47,493 nt of DNA from a virus. Where the stretch lies: the UHGV virus genome UHGV-0021965. One strand, 5' to 3'. The position numbers were made by a program. Positions within the stretch are counted from its first letter, which is position 1. Each line of letters starts with the position of its first letter. Positions 39,001-45,000 of the stretch are shown here, in pieces.

Positions 39001-42000
39001 TCACGATTGATTTTCTCAGACCTAATGCAACCGGCACAGCGTACGTTTATTTTTTCTCTATTTTCCCCCAGACAAAGCCAGATTACGGGATGGCCGTGTG
39101 GGATGCATCGGGGACCCTGATTTTGACCCACGAGACGCGCACGCTCGGCGATGTCGTTACCATAGGCACTGCCGGAGTGGATGCAAACTCAGGCTACAAC
39201 ATCAACACAACCTTGGCGGGGAAGTGGGCCTGCATGCCCGTCATGCTCGGCCTGATTACCGGGGTTATATCTGCCGGTGGCCAGCCGCAGCCCTACGCTG
39301 CAATTTACAAGAGCATGGCAAAACTCGAGGGAAGCAATACGCGGATTTTTGCCAGGCCTCAGACAACCCCCTCCGGAGGGCTGCAAAACGTCGCGTACTC
39401 AAACATGAGAAACGTCATCATGGCCATCAACTGCGCCAACTACGATTGATCGTTTTCAACGATCAATTTCTAATAATTGATCTACCAAATCAATTATATC
39501 CCGTTGATTCATATTGTTATTGTGTAACATTGTGAATGCCCTGGGATATAACCACGATGAAAAACATGATTCTTTGCCTGGCGGTGGCGGTTTTGCTCTC
39601 CGGTTGCGCTGGCGTTATTGAGAAACAGCAACCTGTGTGTTCCGGTACAGCCCTTATCGGCGGGCAGGAAAACAGTGTCCAGATTTACGGAGTGCGTAAA
39701 CAAAACAATCAGACCCAGTACCGCGCCGGTTATCCCTTTAACTGGACCTGGGTTAGTGCCAACACGTTCACCAGCACCACCTGCCAATAACTCATTCTGT
39801 TTCAGAACAAACCTCGCTACGGCGGGGTTTTTTATTGCCTGGAGAAAATATGCTTTATAACACCGGCACCATCGCCGTTAACGGGAACACAGCAACCGGC
39901 ACCGGCACGAACTGGACGGCACCCGCCAGCCAGGTCCGCGCTGGCCAGACGATTATCGTGATGTCTAACCCTGTGCAGCTTTTCCAGATTTCATCCGTGA
40001 ACAGCGCCACGTCAATGACGGTTACGCCTGCGGCTTCCCCGGCGCTGAGCGGCCAGAAGTATGGAATTCTTGTCTCGGACAATATCTCGGTCGACGGCCT
40101 GGCCCAGGCAATGTCGCAGCTCATCAAAGAGTATGACGAGAATATTGGCGCGTGGGAGACGTTCGCTACCACCTCCGCAAACCAGACTATTACCGTCACC
40201 ATCAACGGAGCATCCGTGAATATTCCGGGTATTGGCGCACTTGCCAGAAAGGGGGCAAACAGCGATATCACTGAGCTGAAAGGGCTCACTACTGCGCTTT
40301 CTATTGCACAGGGGGGTACCGGGGCAACAACGGCAGAAGGCAGTCGCACAAACCTCGGTTTAGGAAGTAGCGCGACAAAGGACGTCGGAACGGCTGCCGG
40401 GAATGTGTTGCAGGTGGGGGCTTTTGGGGTTGGTGCTGTACTCCAAAATAAGCCCACAGATGCCAGTTCATCCTTCATCAGTGATGCTGATGGCAATACT
40501 CTGTGGGCTCCTGCGAATGGCTGTGGGTTCCAGAGTTCGTACACTGGCCAGCGAATTGCGCAGCTGTGGATTACTTCCGGTAGTGCGGTATTCAGCCGTT
40601 TTCTAACAACCACGGACCCTCAAACACCAAAATCGTCAGTGCCGTGGGCGCAGCTGCAGTCTGCGGGTACATCAGACATTAACTTTAAAGAAGTGACTGG
40701 CGATTTGGATTTAAACGAATCGCTGTCAAACATCGAGGCAATGGATTTTAAGACCTTCTACTACCTTGCTGATGAAGATAAAGCCATTCGCCGAGGCGTT
40801 ATTGCTCAGGAGTTGGAAAAGATAGATCCGCAATATGTTCACTCGGCTGAGGAGTCGGGGAAAATGACGCTCGACCTCAATCCTCTGGTGCTTGATGCGC
40901 TGGCGGCAATCAAAGCGCTGGCAATCCGCGTCAGCGCATTAGAGGGAGATGCTAAACCTCCGGCTCCTGGCTCATCCGCTGGTTAAACAGGGAATCGTCA
41001 GGCATATCAAGGCGAACATCGATCCAACTGTTCGCTGGCACGTCCATCGGTTCACCTTTGGTTTTGATGATCTCACCTTCATCGCTCAGGATGTATTTTC
41101 GCTTGAAAAGACGGATTGCCAGGCCTCCGCTTTCCGTCTGCTCAGCCTCAACCACGCCAAGTTCTCCCATGCCGCCGGGGTCCATCGGTGGCAGTAGCTG
41201 CCATCCCTCGGACGCCAGGCCTGCCGAACCAGCCAGCACGTAAACGCCCACCTCGAGGCGAGAAATGGTTATTCCCTCCGCCTCAGCGTTCGCCGTCCCA
41301 CAGCCGCACCAGGAGAAGCCATCCTCCGCTATATCGGCGCGCTGGCAGGCTTCCTGGCTCGCTACGATACGGGCAACCGGAGACGCAGCCTTTAGGGTGC
41401 CATCGCTGGCCTTTGTGGTATTGCCCGTGGTGTAAGCCTCCTGATACGACCAAGACGAGCCACCGTAATACGAAAACCACGTTCTCCTCAGAATGTAAGC
41501 CTGATGAATGCGTGTCGGACGGCTTCCCCGGTTGACGACTATTGACGTAATACCCGTATTTGCAGTTAATCCAAGCTGGGTAAGACCATCATTGGAGTGA
41601 GAGGTGAAACAGGTAGGTGTGAATGCATCCATAGCGTCCAGTAGTGGTCCGTCGCCGTGGATAGACCCAATACCGAATGCGCCTACCTGCATCACGTTAT
41701 TTGCGGCGGTTCCGACGTCCTTCGTCGCGCTACTTCCTAAACCGACGTTTGATCAATTGCCATGGGACGGCCTGGCCGATAACTTCACCTGATTTTTTCA
41801 TACAAAAAGGTGACTAAAAAACATGCAATATGGGTATGCCAGGGTATCAACTTTTGACCAAAATCTTGAATTACAGTTAGAAGCGCTTAATCGTATAGAA
41901 TGTGACCATATTTTTGACGATAAAATATCCGGTGCAAAGTCGAAACGGCCGGGGCTGGATAAGATGATGAAGCTATTGCGTCCAGGGGACACTGTCATCG

Positions 42001-45000
42001 TCTGGAAGCTGGATCGGCTTGGACGCTCACTCATACATCTCGTCGATTTACTGCGCTATTTCCGGGCTAATAATATTGAATTTGTCTCAATCACAGAGGG
42101 GATAAGAATCAGCACATCAATCGGCCGATTCGCATACACAATGCTGAGTGCTGCGGCTGAGATGGAAAGAGAAAATATCATTGAAAGAACGAGAGCAGGT
42201 TTAGCTGTGGCAAGGGCAAAGGGAAGAATAGGTGGGAGGCGTCCAAAGCTCACCCAGGAACAATGGGACCAGGCGGGCCGACTGATTGCGAACGGCGTGG
42301 ACAGGAAGCAGGTGGCGATCATCTACGATGTGGCTGTGTGCACGCTTTATAAAAAATTCCCCGTTTCAAAACCGGCTTAAATTTGCTCACACAGAGTTAC
42401 TGTAACAAAATTTACAAAACTCATAATTCGAAGCGACATAGAAACTTAGAAACGAAACGGCGAAGCTTTAAGCATTCATGACAGACTCTCTGTCTTGCGT
42501 GCATACCCAAATGAAACTACTGTATATAAAAACAGTATTTGAGGTATGCAACATGGAATTTATCAGGCCTGCAGAACTGCGAGAAATTATTGCTCTCCCG
42601 CTTTTCAGTGACTTAGTGCAGTGTGGTTTCCCAAGCCCTGCGGCTGATTACGTTGAACAGCGCATCGATCTCAATGAGTTACTTGTTGCTCACCCGAGCT
42701 CAACGTATTTCGTCAAAGCCGCGGGCGATTCAATGATCGAAGCCGGGATTAGCGACGGCGATCTGCTGGTGGTGGACAGCTCCAGGACTGCTGAGCATGG
42801 TGACATTGTCATCGCTGCGGTGGAAGGGGAGTTCACTGTTAAACGCCTGCAGCTGCGCCCGACCGTGCAACTCAACCCTATGAACAGCGCCTACAGCCCG
42901 ATTGTTGTTGGCAGCGAAGACACGCTGGACGTTTTCGGCGTCGTGACTTTCATCGTTAAATCTGCGAGCTGAATATGTTTGCTCTCTGTGATGTGAATTC
43001 GTTCTACGCATCATGCGAGACTGTATTCAGGCCGGACCTGAGAGGGCGGCCGGTTGTTGTTCTCTCAAATAATGATGGCTGTGTAATCGCACGCAGCGCA
43101 GAAGCAAAAGCGGTCGGAATCACTATGGGGGAGCCATTCTTCAAGCAAAAGGAGCTTTTCCGGCGCGCTGGCGTTGTTTGCTTCAGCAGCAATTACGAGC
43201 TTTACGCTGACATGTCGAACCGGGTAATGACGACGCTTGAGGAAATGAGCCCCCGCGTTGAAATTTACAGTATCGACGAAGCTTTTTGCGACCTGACAGG
43301 TGTTCGCAACTGCCGGGACCTGACTGAGTTCGGCAAAGAGATCCGCGCTACGGTTCTGAAGCGGACGCATCTGACGGTCGGGGTTGGCATTGCCCAGACG
43401 AAAACACTGGCGAAGCTGGCCAACCACGCCGCGAAGAAATGGCAGCGGCAAACGGGCGGGGTAGTGGACCTGTCCAATATCGATCGCCAGCGACGACTCC
43501 TTGCCCTGGTACCTGTAGAGGATGTGTGGGGCGTCGGTAGGCGCATCAGCAAGAAGCTAAACGCCATGGGCATAAAAACTGCCCTCGACCTTTCTGAACA
43601 AAGCACGTGGATTATTCGAAAGCACTTCAATGTCGTCCTGGAGCGAACGGTCCGGGAGCTGCGCGGCGAACCATGTCTTGATCTGGAGGAGTTTGCGCCG
43701 GCAAAGCAGGAAATCGTCTGCAGTCGGTCATTTGGCGAACGCGTTACTGAGTATGAGCAGATGCGCCAGGCTATCTGCAGCTATGCCGCCCGTGGTGCTG
43801 AAAAACTTCGGGGTGAGCATCAGTACTGCCGCTTTATCTCTGCGTTCGTGAAAACCTCTCCCTTTGCGCTTAACGAGCCGTATTACGGTAACAGTGCGTC
43901 CATGAAGCTTCTCACACCCACTCAGGATTCCCGCGACATTATCAACGCCGCGGTAAAGTGCCTGGACAAAATCTGGAAAGACGGTCACCGGTACCAGAAG
44001 GCAGGAATCATGCTTGGGGATTTTTTCAGCCAAGGCGTGGCACAGTTGAATCTTTTTGACGAAAACGCGCCGCGGGCTGGAAGCGAAAGGTTGATGGAAG
44101 TGCTCGATCATCTGAATGCTAAAGACGGGAAAGGAACACTCTACTTTGCCGGGCAAGGCATACAGCAGCATTGGCAGATGAAACGCGAGATGCTTTCACC
44201 ACGATACACCACACGTTACAAAGACTTACTGGTCGTTAGGTAAAGGCTTTAATTTTTGAAATCGCATTTCTTTCAAATGTGATTTTCATCTTGGATACAC
44301 AATATAGTGTTGTTAAGATGATGTATCTAAAAAAATAGTAATTCTTTTCGACGGACTGTGATAGTAATGAATGTAGTCGATTTTTTATCAAGTGACATTT
44401 GGCAAGGATTGAGTGTTTTATCCCCTATAGCCATTTCGTTATGTGCGATTCTATACTCTAAATTTCTTTTCAAAAGAGGTTTTCGAACTAAAAACTCTCG
44501 CTTTAAAGACACAAAAAACCTACCAAAAGATTTGTATGAAGGACAAAATACAACACTTTACGGCAAAGTTAGAGAAGAGGTTTTTCCAGGCCCACCAAAT
44601 TATGAGTCCATAAATGATGGGGATGAGCCGCAGTTCTACTGGATTCTTTATGTAAATGAACCTATTAAGCTGGCGGGACGAAGCATGGAGGATGATTCTC
44701 TTTATGAAAAAGGATCATCATGTATGTTCCAGTTATGTCTTACACGCGAAATTTATGATAAACGATTAGATATCCTTAATAAATATGTTAGTGTTGAAGG
44801 AGAGATTTTTTTAGGGCATACAGGCCACCATAAAACCAAAGCTCTTTTGAATGTAAGCACTATAAAAATTATTAAATAATTAGCATGGTAGTCTAGCTTT
44901 TTAAACTCTTTGGATTAGTAATTTTCCCTTATTTGATGTTGTATTAATTCAACACCTTGGTTGTTTGGATTTCCCACGGCACGCGACACTGCGTGCCAGA

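What the first reader, a model, noticed from the sequence alone, without database searches (positions are those of the whole stretch)
40356..42380. Invertible tail-fibre segment with crossover sites inside the coding sequence and a Hin/Gin-type invertase
Two 36-bp inverted repeats (40356-40391 and 41713-41748, one mismatch) both lie within the same reading frame of the peptide GLGSSATKDVGTAA. Inversion would therefore swap the fibre C-terminus in frame: the current cassette ends in an intramolecular-chaperone-like domain, while the silent minus-strand cassette (40952-41695) is unrelated after the first ~10 residues. A serine invertase gene (41823-42380) is immediately adjacent. This is a Mu G-segment-style host-range switch placed on a lambda-like tail, with only one alternative cassette and no separate assembly-chaperone gene.
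Basis: partly seen in the sequence, partly recalled or inferred. Interest (0 to 1): 0.7.

Follow-up and report, generated by a model that had tools for sequence, protein, structure and literature searches.

The report
Invertible tail-fibre tip switch in prophage
This Enterobacter prophage carries a flip-flop DNA segment that lets it make its side tail fibre with either of two different tips, a real and probably working host-recognition switch, but one of a kind known since phages Mu and P1 and common in related prophages.

Summary
A 43-bp inverted repeat (40349-40391 / 41709-41751, 2 mismatches) brackets a 1.39-kb segment inside the tail-fibre gene, next to a Gin-like serine invertase (41823-42380). 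At its outer ends lie two 26-bp crossover sites, GTCGCACAAACC|TC|GGTTTAGGAAGT and ACTTCCTAAACC|GA|CGTTTGATCAAT. They share the core of Mu gix, P1 cix and e14 pix. Inversion keeps codons 1-169 and swaps, in frame, a 209-codon tip with a self-cleaving S74 chaperone for a 263-codon PF25670 tip. No tfa gene is present.

The window is seen in one orientation only, so inversion is inferred from relatives:
- Two near-identical Enterobacter chromosomes encoding the identical invertase protein differ by a flip exactly at these cores.
- 94%-identical relatives carry the window's silent cassette in the expressed position.
- Near-identical viral contigs with the same two-cassette module differ only in its orientation.

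Sixty-six surveyed loci share the layout, and 1.39 kb is the commonest segment length. Phage LLS (2025) is already annotated this way.

Verdict: a new member of a known kind (Din-type fibre inversion on an HK022/HK97-like siphovirus). Interest is low to moderate. Fis/enhancer dependence is supported only indirectly.

The parts
39850..40356 (+). Constant 5' part of the side tail-fibre gene (codons 1-169). It comprises an N-terminal anchor domain and a shaft carrying the conserved ...GGTGATTAEGSRTNLGLG motif. The crossover falls in codon 169 (CTC, Leu of NLGLG).
   Evidence: ORF and translation. PHROG tail-fibre families 1591 and 1980. PDB matches: N-terminus to depolymerase anchors 7lzj/7vyv, shaft to SU10 gp12. 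94.7% identical to relatives L019-L022 across 38292-40258.
40343..40368 (.). Left 26-bp crossover site, GTCGCACAAACC|TC|GGTTTAGGAAGT, with the central dinucleotide at 40355-40356.
   Evidence: Same AAACC-NN-GGTTT core as Mu gixL/R, P1 cix, e14 pix and LLS IR-L. The core motif occurs only at the two repeat ends in the whole window, against 0.3 expected by chance. In a sibling prophage the exchange maps within the 16-bp core.
40349..40391 (.). Left arm of the inverted repeat (43 nt, 2 mismatches to the right arm). It encodes (N)LGLGSSATKDVGT.
40357..40986 (+). Currently expressed cassette A (209 codons plus stop). It consists of a variable tip, 40357-40671, and a Peptidase_S74 intramolecular chaperone starting at Ser275 (40672-40674; motif SDINFK).
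   Evidence: Pfam PF13884, E 2.5e-10, aa 275-330. PDB: T5 L-shaped tail-fibre C-terminus 8hqz_d, E 2.5e-10. Ser/Lys motif located. The mosaic breakpoint against L019 lies at 40669, the domain boundary.
40952..41743 (-). Silent cassette B (263 codons plus stop), lacking a start codon and promoter of its own. It ends in a Phage_tail_C_2 (PF25670) domain. Inversion fuses it in frame to codons 1-169, giving a 432-aa fibre. An in-frame stop lies just outside the right site. Its last 35 bp overlap the 3' end of cassette A on the other strand (40952-40986).
   Evidence: Translation. Pfam PF25670, E 4.8e-31. In-silico flip. Full-length natural fibres 87-93% identical to the flipped product, one of them on 299 contigs. 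Viable phage ECP1 carries such a fibre.
41709..41751 (.). Right arm of the inverted repeat.
41732..41757 (.). Right 26-bp crossover site, ACTTCCTAAACC|GA|CGTTTGATCAAT, with the central dinucleotide at 41744-41745. Its centre lies 78 bp upstream of the invertase ATG. The outer half-site differs at 3 of 12 positions from the CGTTTTATAGAT found in almost all relatives.
41823..42380 (+). Serine DNA invertase, 185 aa, of the Gin/Cin/Pin/Hin (Din) group.
   Evidence: Resolvase + HTH_7. Gin structures 3UJ3/4M6F, E 1e-64 over residues 2-182. Residues R7, S9, D12, Q13, D33, R42, D64, R65, R68 are identical to Gin at the same positions; Fis-contact residues Q150, R153, L154 are present; D46 replaces the usual Lys. 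The identical protein is encoded next to a segment found flipped between two near-identical genomes.
41844..41930 (+). Candidate recombinational enhancer inside the 5' end of the invertase gene. It holds three G-N13-C 15-mers centred at +29, +78 and +101 of the gene: 41844-41858, 41893-41907 and 41916-41930.
   Evidence: 15-mers at the same positions occur in gin and pin (+29, +78, +101) and in cin (+78, +101). Synonymous third positions inside them are 97-100% conserved in 75 distinct invertase genes, against 41-85% at most others. The geometry fits the published picture of a ~65-bp enhancer ~100 bp from a crossover site (PMC3798978). Fis binding was not tested.

Best explanation
This is a Din-family (Gin/Cin/Pin-type) site-specific inversion switch in the side tail-fibre gene of an HK022/HK97-like lambdoid prophage of Enterobacter.

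Proposed mechanism:
1. Invertase dimers bind the two 26-bp sites at 40343-40368 and 41732-41757. This is inferred from homology.
2. They are probably activated by a Fis-bound enhancer in the first ~110 bp of the invertase gene. This is inferred and only indirectly supported.
3. They cut at the central TC/GA dinucleotides, rotate and religate, inverting 1,389 bp. Relatives show exchange at exactly this core; the window itself is seen in one orientation.
4. Codons 1-169 of the fibre, its tail-attachment and shaft part, stay in place. They become joined in frame to one of two tips. Tip A has 209 codons and is folded by its own C-terminal S74 intramolecular chaperone, predicted to self-cleave at Ser275. 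Tip B has 263 codons and ends in a PF25670 domain.
5. Neither tip needs a separately encoded tfa-type chaperone gene at the locus. The whole switch is therefore 1.4 kb, with the two cassettes converging and overlapping by 35 bp.
6. A lysogen population would release virions with one or the other fibre tip, hedging between hosts or surface receptors. This last step is inferred from Mu and P1.
For: - Anatomy: repeat, reading frame and in-silico flip.
- Crossover sites share the AAACC-NN-GGTTT core of Mu gix, P1 cix, e14 pix and LLS IR-L/R, with a matching central dinucleotide in inverted orientation. The motif is unique to these two places in the window.
- The invertase matches Gin at E 1e-64. 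Nine residues compared with Gin, including the catalytic Ser9, are all identical, and the Fis-contact residues are present.
- Two 4,734,615-bp Enterobacter chromosome assemblies (GCA_977010805.1 and GCA_977005075.1) encode the identical invertase protein. They differ by 1 mismatch in 4,646 bp of flank and by inversion of a 4.2-kb fibre segment. The break-points fall within the 16-bp core, and the inner half-sites are exchanged precisely.
- Relatives L019-L022 are 94-95% identical in the constant part and in cassette B. They have cassette B expressed and an S74 cassette silent.
- Viral contigs L100 and L102 have flanks 99.8-99.9% identical and the same S74 + PF25670 module. They differ only by inversion of the 1,413-bp segment. 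L049 and L056 show the same pattern.
- The flipped product is 87-93% identical over its full length to annotated fibres found on hundreds of contigs.
- Viable phage ECP1 has a PF25670-tipped fibre as its last late gene, with no tfa gene.
- No Tfa/U homologue lies between the sites in the window-type loci.
Against: - The window's own DNA is available in one orientation only, and the exact flipped protein is absent from the 15-billion-protein collection.
- The right outer half-site, CGTTTGATCAAT, is the most divergent among ~70 related sites and was found in no species-representative genome, so this copy could be sluggish or frozen.
- Asp46 replaces a Lys reported as invariant in 15 Fis-dependent invertases (PMC3798978).
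- Fis sites are degenerate, so the enhancer call rests on position and synonymous-site conservation in a sample that is not phylogenetically independent.
- The receptor specificity of either tip is unknown.
- Lambda-type side fibres are often accessory, so the phenotype may be adsorption rate rather than strict host range.
Confidence: 0.85

Rival explanations
1. Frozen relic. The module descends from an active switch but no longer inverts in this prophage, either because the right outer half-site has drifted or because the invertase is not expressed. The fibre is then permanently of the S74 type and cassette B is dead cargo.
For: The right outer half-site differs at 3 of 12 positions from the near-universal CGTTTTATAGAT. 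The variant 19-mer occurs in no GTDB species-representative genome except one chance hit. Only one orientation of this exact element is on record.
Against: Both cassettes and the invertase are intact ORFs with all catalytic residues. The core and central dinucleotides match. Functional sites in this family tolerate very different outer halves: GTCGCAC..., ACTTCCT..., ATCTATA.... The left outer half-site, used in a proven flip, also has G at the position where the window's right site deviates. The identical invertase protein is linked to a real flip.
Confidence: 0.12
2. The inverted repeat is only a conserved tail-fibre motif (NLGLGSSATKDVG...) present twice because two fibre gene fragments lie head to head after illegitimate or homologous recombination. 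Any inversion would then come from RecA-dependent recombination, not from a dedicated site-specific system.
For: The repeat encodes a motif conserved in many unrelated fibres, for example SU10 gp12. Homology continues ~50 nt inward of the core.
Against: In sibling loci the exchange point lies within the 16-bp Din core, where flanking homology is otherwise absent. An invertase gene sits at a fixed 84 bp from the AAACC motif of the right site in the 61 surveyed loci where the gene sits at 6001 and the site at 5916-5918. The sites match gix, cix and pix. Multi-cassette relatives carry extra sites made of the same core with unrelated flanks.
Confidence: 0.02
3. The switch works as described but is Fis/enhancer-independent, or uses an altered activation mode. 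This invertase clade has a divergent catalytic domain with Asp at the helix-B position that is Lys in classical Din enzymes.
For: D46 replaces the Lys at Hin position 47; the window keeps basic residues at the positions of Hin R48 and K51 (PMC3798978). The catalytic domain is only ~55% identical to Gin and Fin, while the DNA-binding domain is 92% identical to Fin. blastn alignment to relatives restarts at 42218.
Against: The Fis-contact residues Q150, R153 and L154 are conserved. The candidate Fis 15-mers and their synonymous positions are conserved in this clade too. Extra lysines (K39, K41) flank helix B.
Confidence: 0.1

Closest known systems
Phage Mu G segment / Gin (and P1 C segment / Cin)
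   Same: - The invertase is homologous to Gin (E 1e-64; 57% identity).
- The 26-bp sites share the AAACC-NN-GGTTT core.
- The left site lies inside the fibre ORF at the same NLGL motif. Mu gixL, TTATCCAAAACCTCGGTTTACAGGAA, reads IQNLGLQE by my own translation.
- A constant N-terminus is joined to alternative C-termini.
- The invertase gene lies just outside the right site and reads away from it, with a similar spacing: 67 bp in Mu, 78 bp here.
   Different: - In Mu and P1 each orientation brings its own tail-fibre assembly gene (U/U'), and the segment is 3-4 kb on a contractile-tail phage.
- Here there is no chaperone gene and the segment is 1.39 kb. One tip carries an S74 self-cleaving chaperone, the other a PF25670 domain.
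- The cassettes overlap at their 3' ends.
- The virion has a lambda-like non-contractile tail.
Escherichia phage LLS (PQ299149), 'Fin' invertase with annotated IR-L/IR-R
   Same: - A lambdoid phage with two adjacent, oppositely oriented fibre genes.
- Din-type sites: CTCGCGCAAACC|TC|GGTTTGGGAAGT and GTTTCCCAAACC|GA|CGTTTTATAGAT.
- The invertase lies 84 bp downstream, and its DNA-binding domain is 92% identical to the window's.
- The authors predict tip switching as in Mu and P1.
   Different: - The LLS segment is 1.94 kb with different tips.
- Its catalytic domain is only 56% identical to the window's.
- Inversion was not demonstrated experimentally in that paper, as far as the passages retrieved show.
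e14 P segment / Pin of E. coli K-12
   Same: A prophage-borne Din invertase with pix sites of the same core that fuses alternative fibre C-termini. Coexisting orientations have been shown by sequencing and PCR (PMC4272514).
   Different: e14 cassettes each carry a tfa gene (tfaP, tfaE). The neighbouring tail genes are baseplate-type.
Min system of plasmid p15B and other multiple-inversion 'shufflon-like' fibre loci
   Same: Relatives of the window carry 3-4 crossover sites and 3-4 alternative tips. Their internal sites read AAACC|GA|CCTTTATTCACC. E. coli strains H6 and VREC0761 show different cassette orders at the same chromosomal site.
   Different: The window has only two sites and two tips.

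Membership tests
Din-family (Gin/Hin/Cin/Pin) DNA inversion systems | Small (~185-195 aa) serine recombinase with an N-terminal catalytic domain carrying the active-site Ser, and a C-terminal helix-turn-helix domain. | tested here: met
   PF00239 + PF02796. Gin 3UJ3, E 1.3e-64 over residues 2-182. R7, S9, D12, Q13, D33, R42, D64, R65 and R68 are identical to Gin at the same positions.
Din-family (Gin/Hin/Cin/Pin) DNA inversion systems | Two 26-bp imperfectly dyad-symmetric crossover sites in inverted orientation, with the same central 2 bp. | tested here: met
   Sites at 40343-40368 (core TC) and 41732-41757 (core GA, the reverse complement of TC). They match the real gix, cix and pix sequences read from Mu, P1 and K-12 records. 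The motif is unique to these two places in the window.
Din-family (Gin/Hin/Cin/Pin) DNA inversion systems | Inversion actually occurs, with strand exchange at the central dinucleotide. | tested here: met
   Met for siblings, not for the window's own DNA. L025 against L014/L029 (identical invertase protein) and L100 against L102 differ by inversion. In the L025 pairs the collinear and inverted alignments overlap by only the 16-bp cores, and the inner half-sites are exchanged exactly.
Din-family (Gin/Hin/Cin/Pin) DNA inversion systems | Both orientations coexist in a population carrying this very element. | not testable with these tools
   Only assembled contigs in one orientation exist for the window sequence.
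Din-family (Gin/Hin/Cin/Pin) DNA inversion systems | A cis-acting recombinational enhancer with two Fis sites, normally in the 5' part of the invertase gene about 100 bp from a crossover site. | tested here: inconclusive
   G-N13-C 15-mers centred at +29, +78 and +101, at the same positions in gin and pin; cin has those at +78 and +101. Synonymous positions inside them are 97-100% conserved in 75 distinct genes. The distance from the right site to the first 15-mer is ~107 bp. No binding data exist, and which pair is functional is unknown.
Din-family (Gin/Hin/Cin/Pin) DNA inversion systems | Residues that contact Fis or the enhancer: Hin Q151, R154, L155, and the basic helix-B residues K47, R48, K51. 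| tested here: inconclusive
   Q150, R153 and L154 are present. Helix B reads D46, K47, K50, so the Lys reported as invariant in 15 invertases is Asp here and in the whole window-type clade.
Mu G / P1 C-type tail-fibre host-range switch | The crossover lies inside the fibre ORF, so a constant N-terminal part is fused in frame to alternative C-terminal parts. | tested here: met
   Natural full-length counterparts of both fusion products exist.
Mu G / P1 C-type tail-fibre host-range switch | Each alternative cassette includes its own tail-fibre assembly (Tfa/U-type) chaperone gene. | tested here: not met
   There is no free coding space, because the cassettes overlap by 35 bp. tblastn with Mu U/U' and e14 TfaE/TfaP gives no hits in window-type loci but does give hits in other invertase loci (L038-L041, L043).
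Mu G / P1 C-type tail-fibre host-range switch | The alternative tips confer different host or receptor specificity. | not testable with these tools
   The tips are unrelated in sequence beyond residue ~30. Receptors are unknown. The AlphaFold model of tip B was too poor to use (pLDDT 46).
Multiple-inversion (Min / shufflon-like) systems | More than two crossover sites, allowing several alternative cassettes. | tested here: not met
   Only two sites in the window. Relatives with 3-4 sites exist.
Peptidase_S74 C-terminal intramolecular chaperone (endosialidase / T5 pb1 type) | A C-terminal domain with the Ser-Lys (SDxxxK) autocleavage dyad at its start. | tested here: met
   The PF13884 match starts at residue 275, the Ser of SDINFK. 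Homology to the T5 L-shaped fibre C-terminus, 8hqz_d. Cleavage itself was not tested.

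The most novel reading that the evidence does not exclude
The window may represent a distinct, so far undescribed design class of fibre switch: a minimal 1.4-kb module for siphovirus side fibres that needs no tfa gene. One tip brings a self-cleaving S74 chaperone. The other relies on the strongly conserved PF25670 C-terminal domain, which might itself be an uncharacterised built-in folding or trimerisation module rather than the receptor-binding surface. The switch is driven by a mosaic invertase clade that keeps the Fin-type DNA-binding domain but has a new catalytic domain with Asp at the 'invariant' helix-B lysine, so its Fis/enhancer control could differ from the classical invertasome.
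Probability: 0.15. Interest if true: 0.45.

Novelty: new member of a known kind. Interest (0 to 1): 0.25.

Why it matters
The finding confirms that programmed tail-fibre inversion, classically a feature of Mu, P1 and P2-type contractile-tail phages, is also routine on HK022/HK97-like lambdoid prophages of Enterobacter and E. coli, in a very compact form without a chaperone gene.

Practical consequences:
- Annotators should fuse the 'partial' minus-strand fibre ORFs to the constant part rather than calling them separate genes.
- Predictions of prophage host range need to consider both tips.
- The 1.4-kb two-tip module, with a defined 26-bp site pair and a 185-aa invertase, could serve as a small natural scaffold for engineering switchable receptor-binding proteins.

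It does not open a new mechanistic question on its own.

Tried and rejected
1. Exact look-up of the in-silico flipped 432-aa fibre: not in the collection. The window's own flipped state is therefore undocumented.
2. Genome-contig scan for the window's unusual right site, AAACCGACGTTTGATCAAT: a single hit, in a Deinococcales MAG, which I take to be chance; by my own estimate a few chance matches to a 19-mer are expected in 596 Gb.
3. AlphaFold2 of cassette B with a 20-sequence alignment: mean pLDDT 46, pTM 0.38, too poor for a fold search. No fold search was run.
4. PDB by sequence for cassette B: the only hit is SU10 gp12 (7z47_D). According to the paper only residues 1-90 of that chain were built, so there is no solved structure for the PF25670 domain. 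That protein is also the proximal, not the distal, fibre subunit.
5. NCBIfam gives no specific invertase family for this protein, only distant serine-recombinase models below cut-off.
6. First enhancer guess: Fis sites at +53/+101, which are 48 bp apart in gin and cin. The window lacks the C at +7 of the +53 site. I recalled the hin sequence, with ATTTA and TAATG between the sites as described in PMC3798978. That recollection, together with synonymous-site conservation, points rather to +29/+78. The question is left open.
7. Hairpin over the invertase ribosome-binding site (41785-41813): z-score -1.3, not significant, and restricted to the window-type clade.
Two Logan contigs (L017, L018) do start exactly at AAACCGACGTTT, which is suggestive only.
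9. Literature searches for 'intramolecular chaperone' + 'DNA invertase' + 'tail fiber' and for mEpX1 + invertase: no papers in the held library.
10. Older primary papers on the cin and gin enhancers could not be read: one paper is not held, and one query failed on a too-short search term.

Full report
**What is in the sequence**

The window holds a nearly complete lambdoid prophage. Downstream of tape-measure, gpM, gpL, gpK, gpI and gpJ homologues (locus L028, which is identical to the window) come five elements:
- two small HK022 p24/p25-like genes;
- a Cor exclusion lipoprotein (NCBIfam E 3e-43);
- a terminator-like hairpin at 39809-39830;
- a 378-aa tail-fibre gene at 39850-40986;
- on the opposite strand, converging on the fibre gene and overlapping it by 35 bp, a start-less fibre C-terminal cassette at 41743->40955.

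A 185-aa serine recombinase gene follows at 41823-42380.

The exact invertase protein is annotated in Enterobacter ludwigii. The window equals an ENA metagenome contig, ERZ27287262 k141_629792.

**Checking the observation**

Position x pairs with 82100-x.
- Identity extends to 43 nt with 2 mismatches (40349-40391 / 41709-41751). Weaker homology covers 95 nt.
- It is the only substantial inverted repeat in 47.5 kb.
- Both arms encode GLGSSATKDVGTAA in the relevant frames.

**The crossover sites**

The outer ends of the repeat are two 26-bp sites.
- Left: GTCGCACAAACC|TC|GGTTTAGGAAGT, 40343-40368.
- Right: ACTTCCTAAACC|GA|CGTTTGATCAAT, 41732-41757.

I read the real sites from database records rather than from memory:
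- Mu gixL TTATCCAAAACC|TC|GGTTTACAGGAA and gixR;
- P1 cix CAATCCTAAACC|TT|GGTTTAAGAGAA;
- e14 pix CTCTCGAAAACC|TT|GGTTTGGGAGAA and TTCTCCCAAACC|AA|CGTTTATGAAAA;
- LLS IR-L and IR-R.

All share the AAACC-NN-(G/C)GTTT core. In the window this core occurs only at the two repeat ends, against 0.3 expected by chance. The central dinucleotides, TC and GA, are reverse complements of each other, as inversion by a serine recombinase requires.

The crossover falls in codon 169 (CTC, Leu of N-L-G-L-G). By my own translation, Mu gixL and the e14 left pix site also encode NLGL, so the site position within fibre genes appears homologous across the family.

**Consequence of inversion**

An in-silico flip of 40355-41745 leaves codons 1-169 untouched. 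It replaces the 209-codon cassette A with the 263-codon cassette B, giving an open 432-aa frame. The cassettes share about 30 N-terminal residues and nothing else.
- Cassette A ends in a Peptidase_S74 intramolecular chaperone. The Pfam match starts exactly at Ser275 of an SDINFK Ser-Lys motif, and there is homology to the phage T5 L-shaped fibre C-terminus.
- Cassette B ends in PF25670, Phage_tail_C_2 (E 5e-31).
- The segment has no room for a tfa gene, and no Tfa/U homologue lies between the sites in window-type loci. Such homologues were readily found next to other invertases in the same search.
- The plaque-forming phage ECP1 has a PF25670-tipped fibre, 74% identical to the flipped product, as its last late gene, followed directly by the integrase gene. 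This tip therefore works without an adjacent chaperone gene.

**The invertase**

It matches Gin crystal structures at E 1e-64 over residues 2-182. Nine residues compared with Gin, including the catalytic Ser9, are all identical (R7, S9, D12, Q13, D33, R42, D64, R65, R68). It also keeps the three DNA-binding-domain residues that contact Fis in Hin; their Gin-numbering equivalents are Q150, R153 and L154 (PMC3798978).

It is a mosaic. Residues 132-182 are 92% identical to LLS 'Fin', but residues 1-131 only 56%. blastn alignment to relatives restarts at 42218.

One of the three helix-B basic residues, said to be an invariant Lys in 15 invertases, is Asp46 in this clade.

**Does it invert?**

The window itself is on record in one orientation only. 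Three lines of evidence from relatives support inversion.
- Identical invertase, flipped segment. Two chromosome assemblies of identical length (4,734,615 bp; GCA_977010805.1 and GCA_977005075.1) encode the identical invertase protein. They differ by 1 mismatch in 4,646 bp of flank and by inversion of a 4.2-kb fibre segment. The collinear and inverted alignments overlap by only the 16-bp cores. The inner half-sites are exchanged exactly: GGTTTAGGAGAT/ACTTCCCAAACC becomes GGTTTGGGAAGT/ATCTCCTAAACC.
- Close relatives in the other state. Loci L019-L022 are 94.7% identical across 38292-40258 and 94.4% across 40669-41751. They carry that stretch, which holds cassette B, in the opposite orientation. 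The PF25670 tip is expressed as a 422-aa fibre, an S74 cassette is silent, and the same invertase-umuDC neighbourhood follows.
- Same two-cassette module in both orientations. IMG/VR contigs L100 and L102 have flanks 99.75-99.92% identical and a 1,413-bp segment that is inverted at 99.8% identity. L049 and L056 behave likewise.

The flipped product is 87-93% identical over its full length to many annotated Enterobacter fibres, one of them on 299 contigs.

**How common is it?**

Of about 90 related invertase loci examined, 66 show the same pair of sites. Where the gene sits at 6001, the right site lies at 5916-5918, i.e. its AAACC motif starts 83-85 bp (84 bp in most) upstream of the invertase ATG.
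- The raw list of segment lengths runs 1,338-4,235 bp. The 4,235-bp value (L031) is a site-picking artefact; that locus's segment is 1,401 bp, so the true maximum is 4,202 bp.
- The window's 1,389 bp is the commonest value.
- By the script's counts, 36 segments are under 1.75 kb, consistent with two cassettes; with L031 corrected this becomes 37.
- Longer segments carry extra internal sites, AAACC|GA|CCTTTATTCACC, and a third or fourth tip, as in the Min system of p15B.
- Two E. coli strains show different cassette orders at the same yciI-tonB prophage.

Phage LLS is already annotated with IR-L, IR-R, two opposed fibre genes and an invertase. Its authors state that it 'likely undergoes tail-fiber tip switching similar to Mu and P1'. 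Phage mEpX1 carries a 'Pin-like' invertase next to its fibre gene.

**Enhancer**

- G-N13-C 15-mers occur centred at +29, +78 and +101 in the window (41844-41858, 41893-41907, 41916-41930). They occur at the same positions in gin and pin; cin has those at +78 and +101.
- In 75 distinct invertase genes the synonymous third positions +27, +33, +36, +75, +78, +81, +102 and +108 are 97-100% conserved. Most other third positions are 41-85% conserved.
- The first 15-mer lies ~107 bp from the right crossover centre. This agrees with the published description of a ~65-bp enhancer ~100 bp from a hix site.

This is suggestive of DNA-level constraint, but it is not proof of Fis binding. The sample is dominated by two clades.

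**Interpretation and verdict**

The finding is a genuine, intact and probably active Din-type tail-fibre inversion switch. It works like the Mu G and P1 C segments. It differs in three respects: it sits on a lambda-like siphovirus side fibre, it has only two tips, and it has no tfa-type genes.

These differences are shared by a large, already sampled and partly annotated family. I therefore rate it as a new member of a known kind and put interest at about 0.25.

The main uncertainty specific to this copy is its divergent right outer half-site, 3 of 12 positions away from the family norm. That leaves roughly a one-in-eight chance that this particular element is frozen.

Noticed in passing
window 41823-42380 (breakpoint near 42218): The invertase is a mosaic. 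Its DNA-binding domain (aa 132-182) is 92% identical to LLS Fin. Its catalytic domain (aa 1-131) is only ~56% identical to Fin and ~54% to Gin. Nucleotide alignment to relatives L019-L021 stops at the right site and resumes at 42218.
   Followed up: partly
window 41958-41960 (codon 46 of the invertase): Asp46 occupies the helix-B position (Hin K47) reported as always Lys in 15 Fis-dependent invertases. All window-type clade members, including phage Eeyore, read GLDKMMK here. The identical protein is nevertheless associated with a real flip.
   Followed up: partly
window 41746-41757: The right outer half-site, CGTTTGATCAAT, differs at 3 of 12 positions from the CGTTTTATAGAT seen in nearly all ~70 related loci. 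The 19-mer spanning it is absent from all GTDB species-representative genomes apart from one chance hit.
   Followed up: partly
window 40952-40986: The two convergent cassettes overlap by 35 bp, so the last ~11 codons of each tip are read from opposite strands of the same DNA. The same 35-bp overlap is present in relatives L019-L022.
   Followed up: partly
window 40669-40674: The mosaic breakpoint between the window and L019 falls exactly at the start of the S74 chaperone domain (Ser275). The receptor-side part of tip A (aa ~183-274) differs, while the chaperone domain is shared. This suggests modular exchange at the cleavage site.
   Followed up: no
window 40955-41440 (cassette B, aa 106-253): In 20 homologues the extreme C-terminal PF25670 domain is far more conserved, with dozens of invariant residues, than the stretch before it (aa 30-105). 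That is unusual for a receptor-binding tip. The only PDB relative is the C-terminus of SU10 gp12, a proximal fibre subunit, and that region is unresolved. The AlphaFold model was poor (pLDDT 46).
   Followed up: partly
window 41785-41813: A 6-bp hairpin, UCACCU...AGGUGA, would sequester the invertase Shine-Dalgarno sequence (AGGTGA, 9 nt before the ATG). It is conserved in Eeyore and L025 but not in Fin-type loci. Its folding z-score is only -1.3.
   Followed up: partly
window 42478-47297: A DNA-damage-themed cargo cluster lies downstream of the invertase: UmuD-like S24 peptidase (42478-42972), UmuC (42975-44243), a DUF4431 protein (44358-44879), an SRAP/YedK-like peptidase (44915-45598, minus strand), DinI (about 45826-46065, minus strand), and an AbiTii abortive-infection protein (46329-47297, minus strand). 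The invertase-umuDC linkage is conserved in relatives and in phage Eeyore.
   Followed up: partly
window 39536-39830: The Cor superinfection-exclusion lipoprotein gene is followed by a terminator-like hairpin (39809-39830) just upstream of the fibre start codon. Fibre expression therefore probably depends on anti-terminated late transcription.
   Followed up: no
L025 5715-9928 (sibling prophage, GCA_977010805.1; also L026, L029, L014): The sibling prophage with the identical invertase has a 4.2-kb invertible segment. It carries a 704-aa ORF, co-oriented with one S74 tip, that has no Pfam, PHROG or PDB match. This orphan gene would be switched on and off together with the fibre tip.
   Followed up: partly
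L007 / L008 (E. coli H6 and VREC0761, yciI-tonB prophage); L036, L079, L108 and others: Multi-cassette relatives have 3-4 crossover sites, with internal sites AAACC|GA|CCTTTATTCACC, and show different cassette orders between strains. This is a Min/shufflon-like version of the same system.
   Followed up: partly
L017, L018, L015 (Logan contigs): Short-read contigs begin exactly at the crossover core: AAACCGACGTTT... in L017 and L018, AAACCGACCTTT... in L015. This would be expected if the assembly graph branches there because both orientations were present in the sequenced culture.
   Followed up: no
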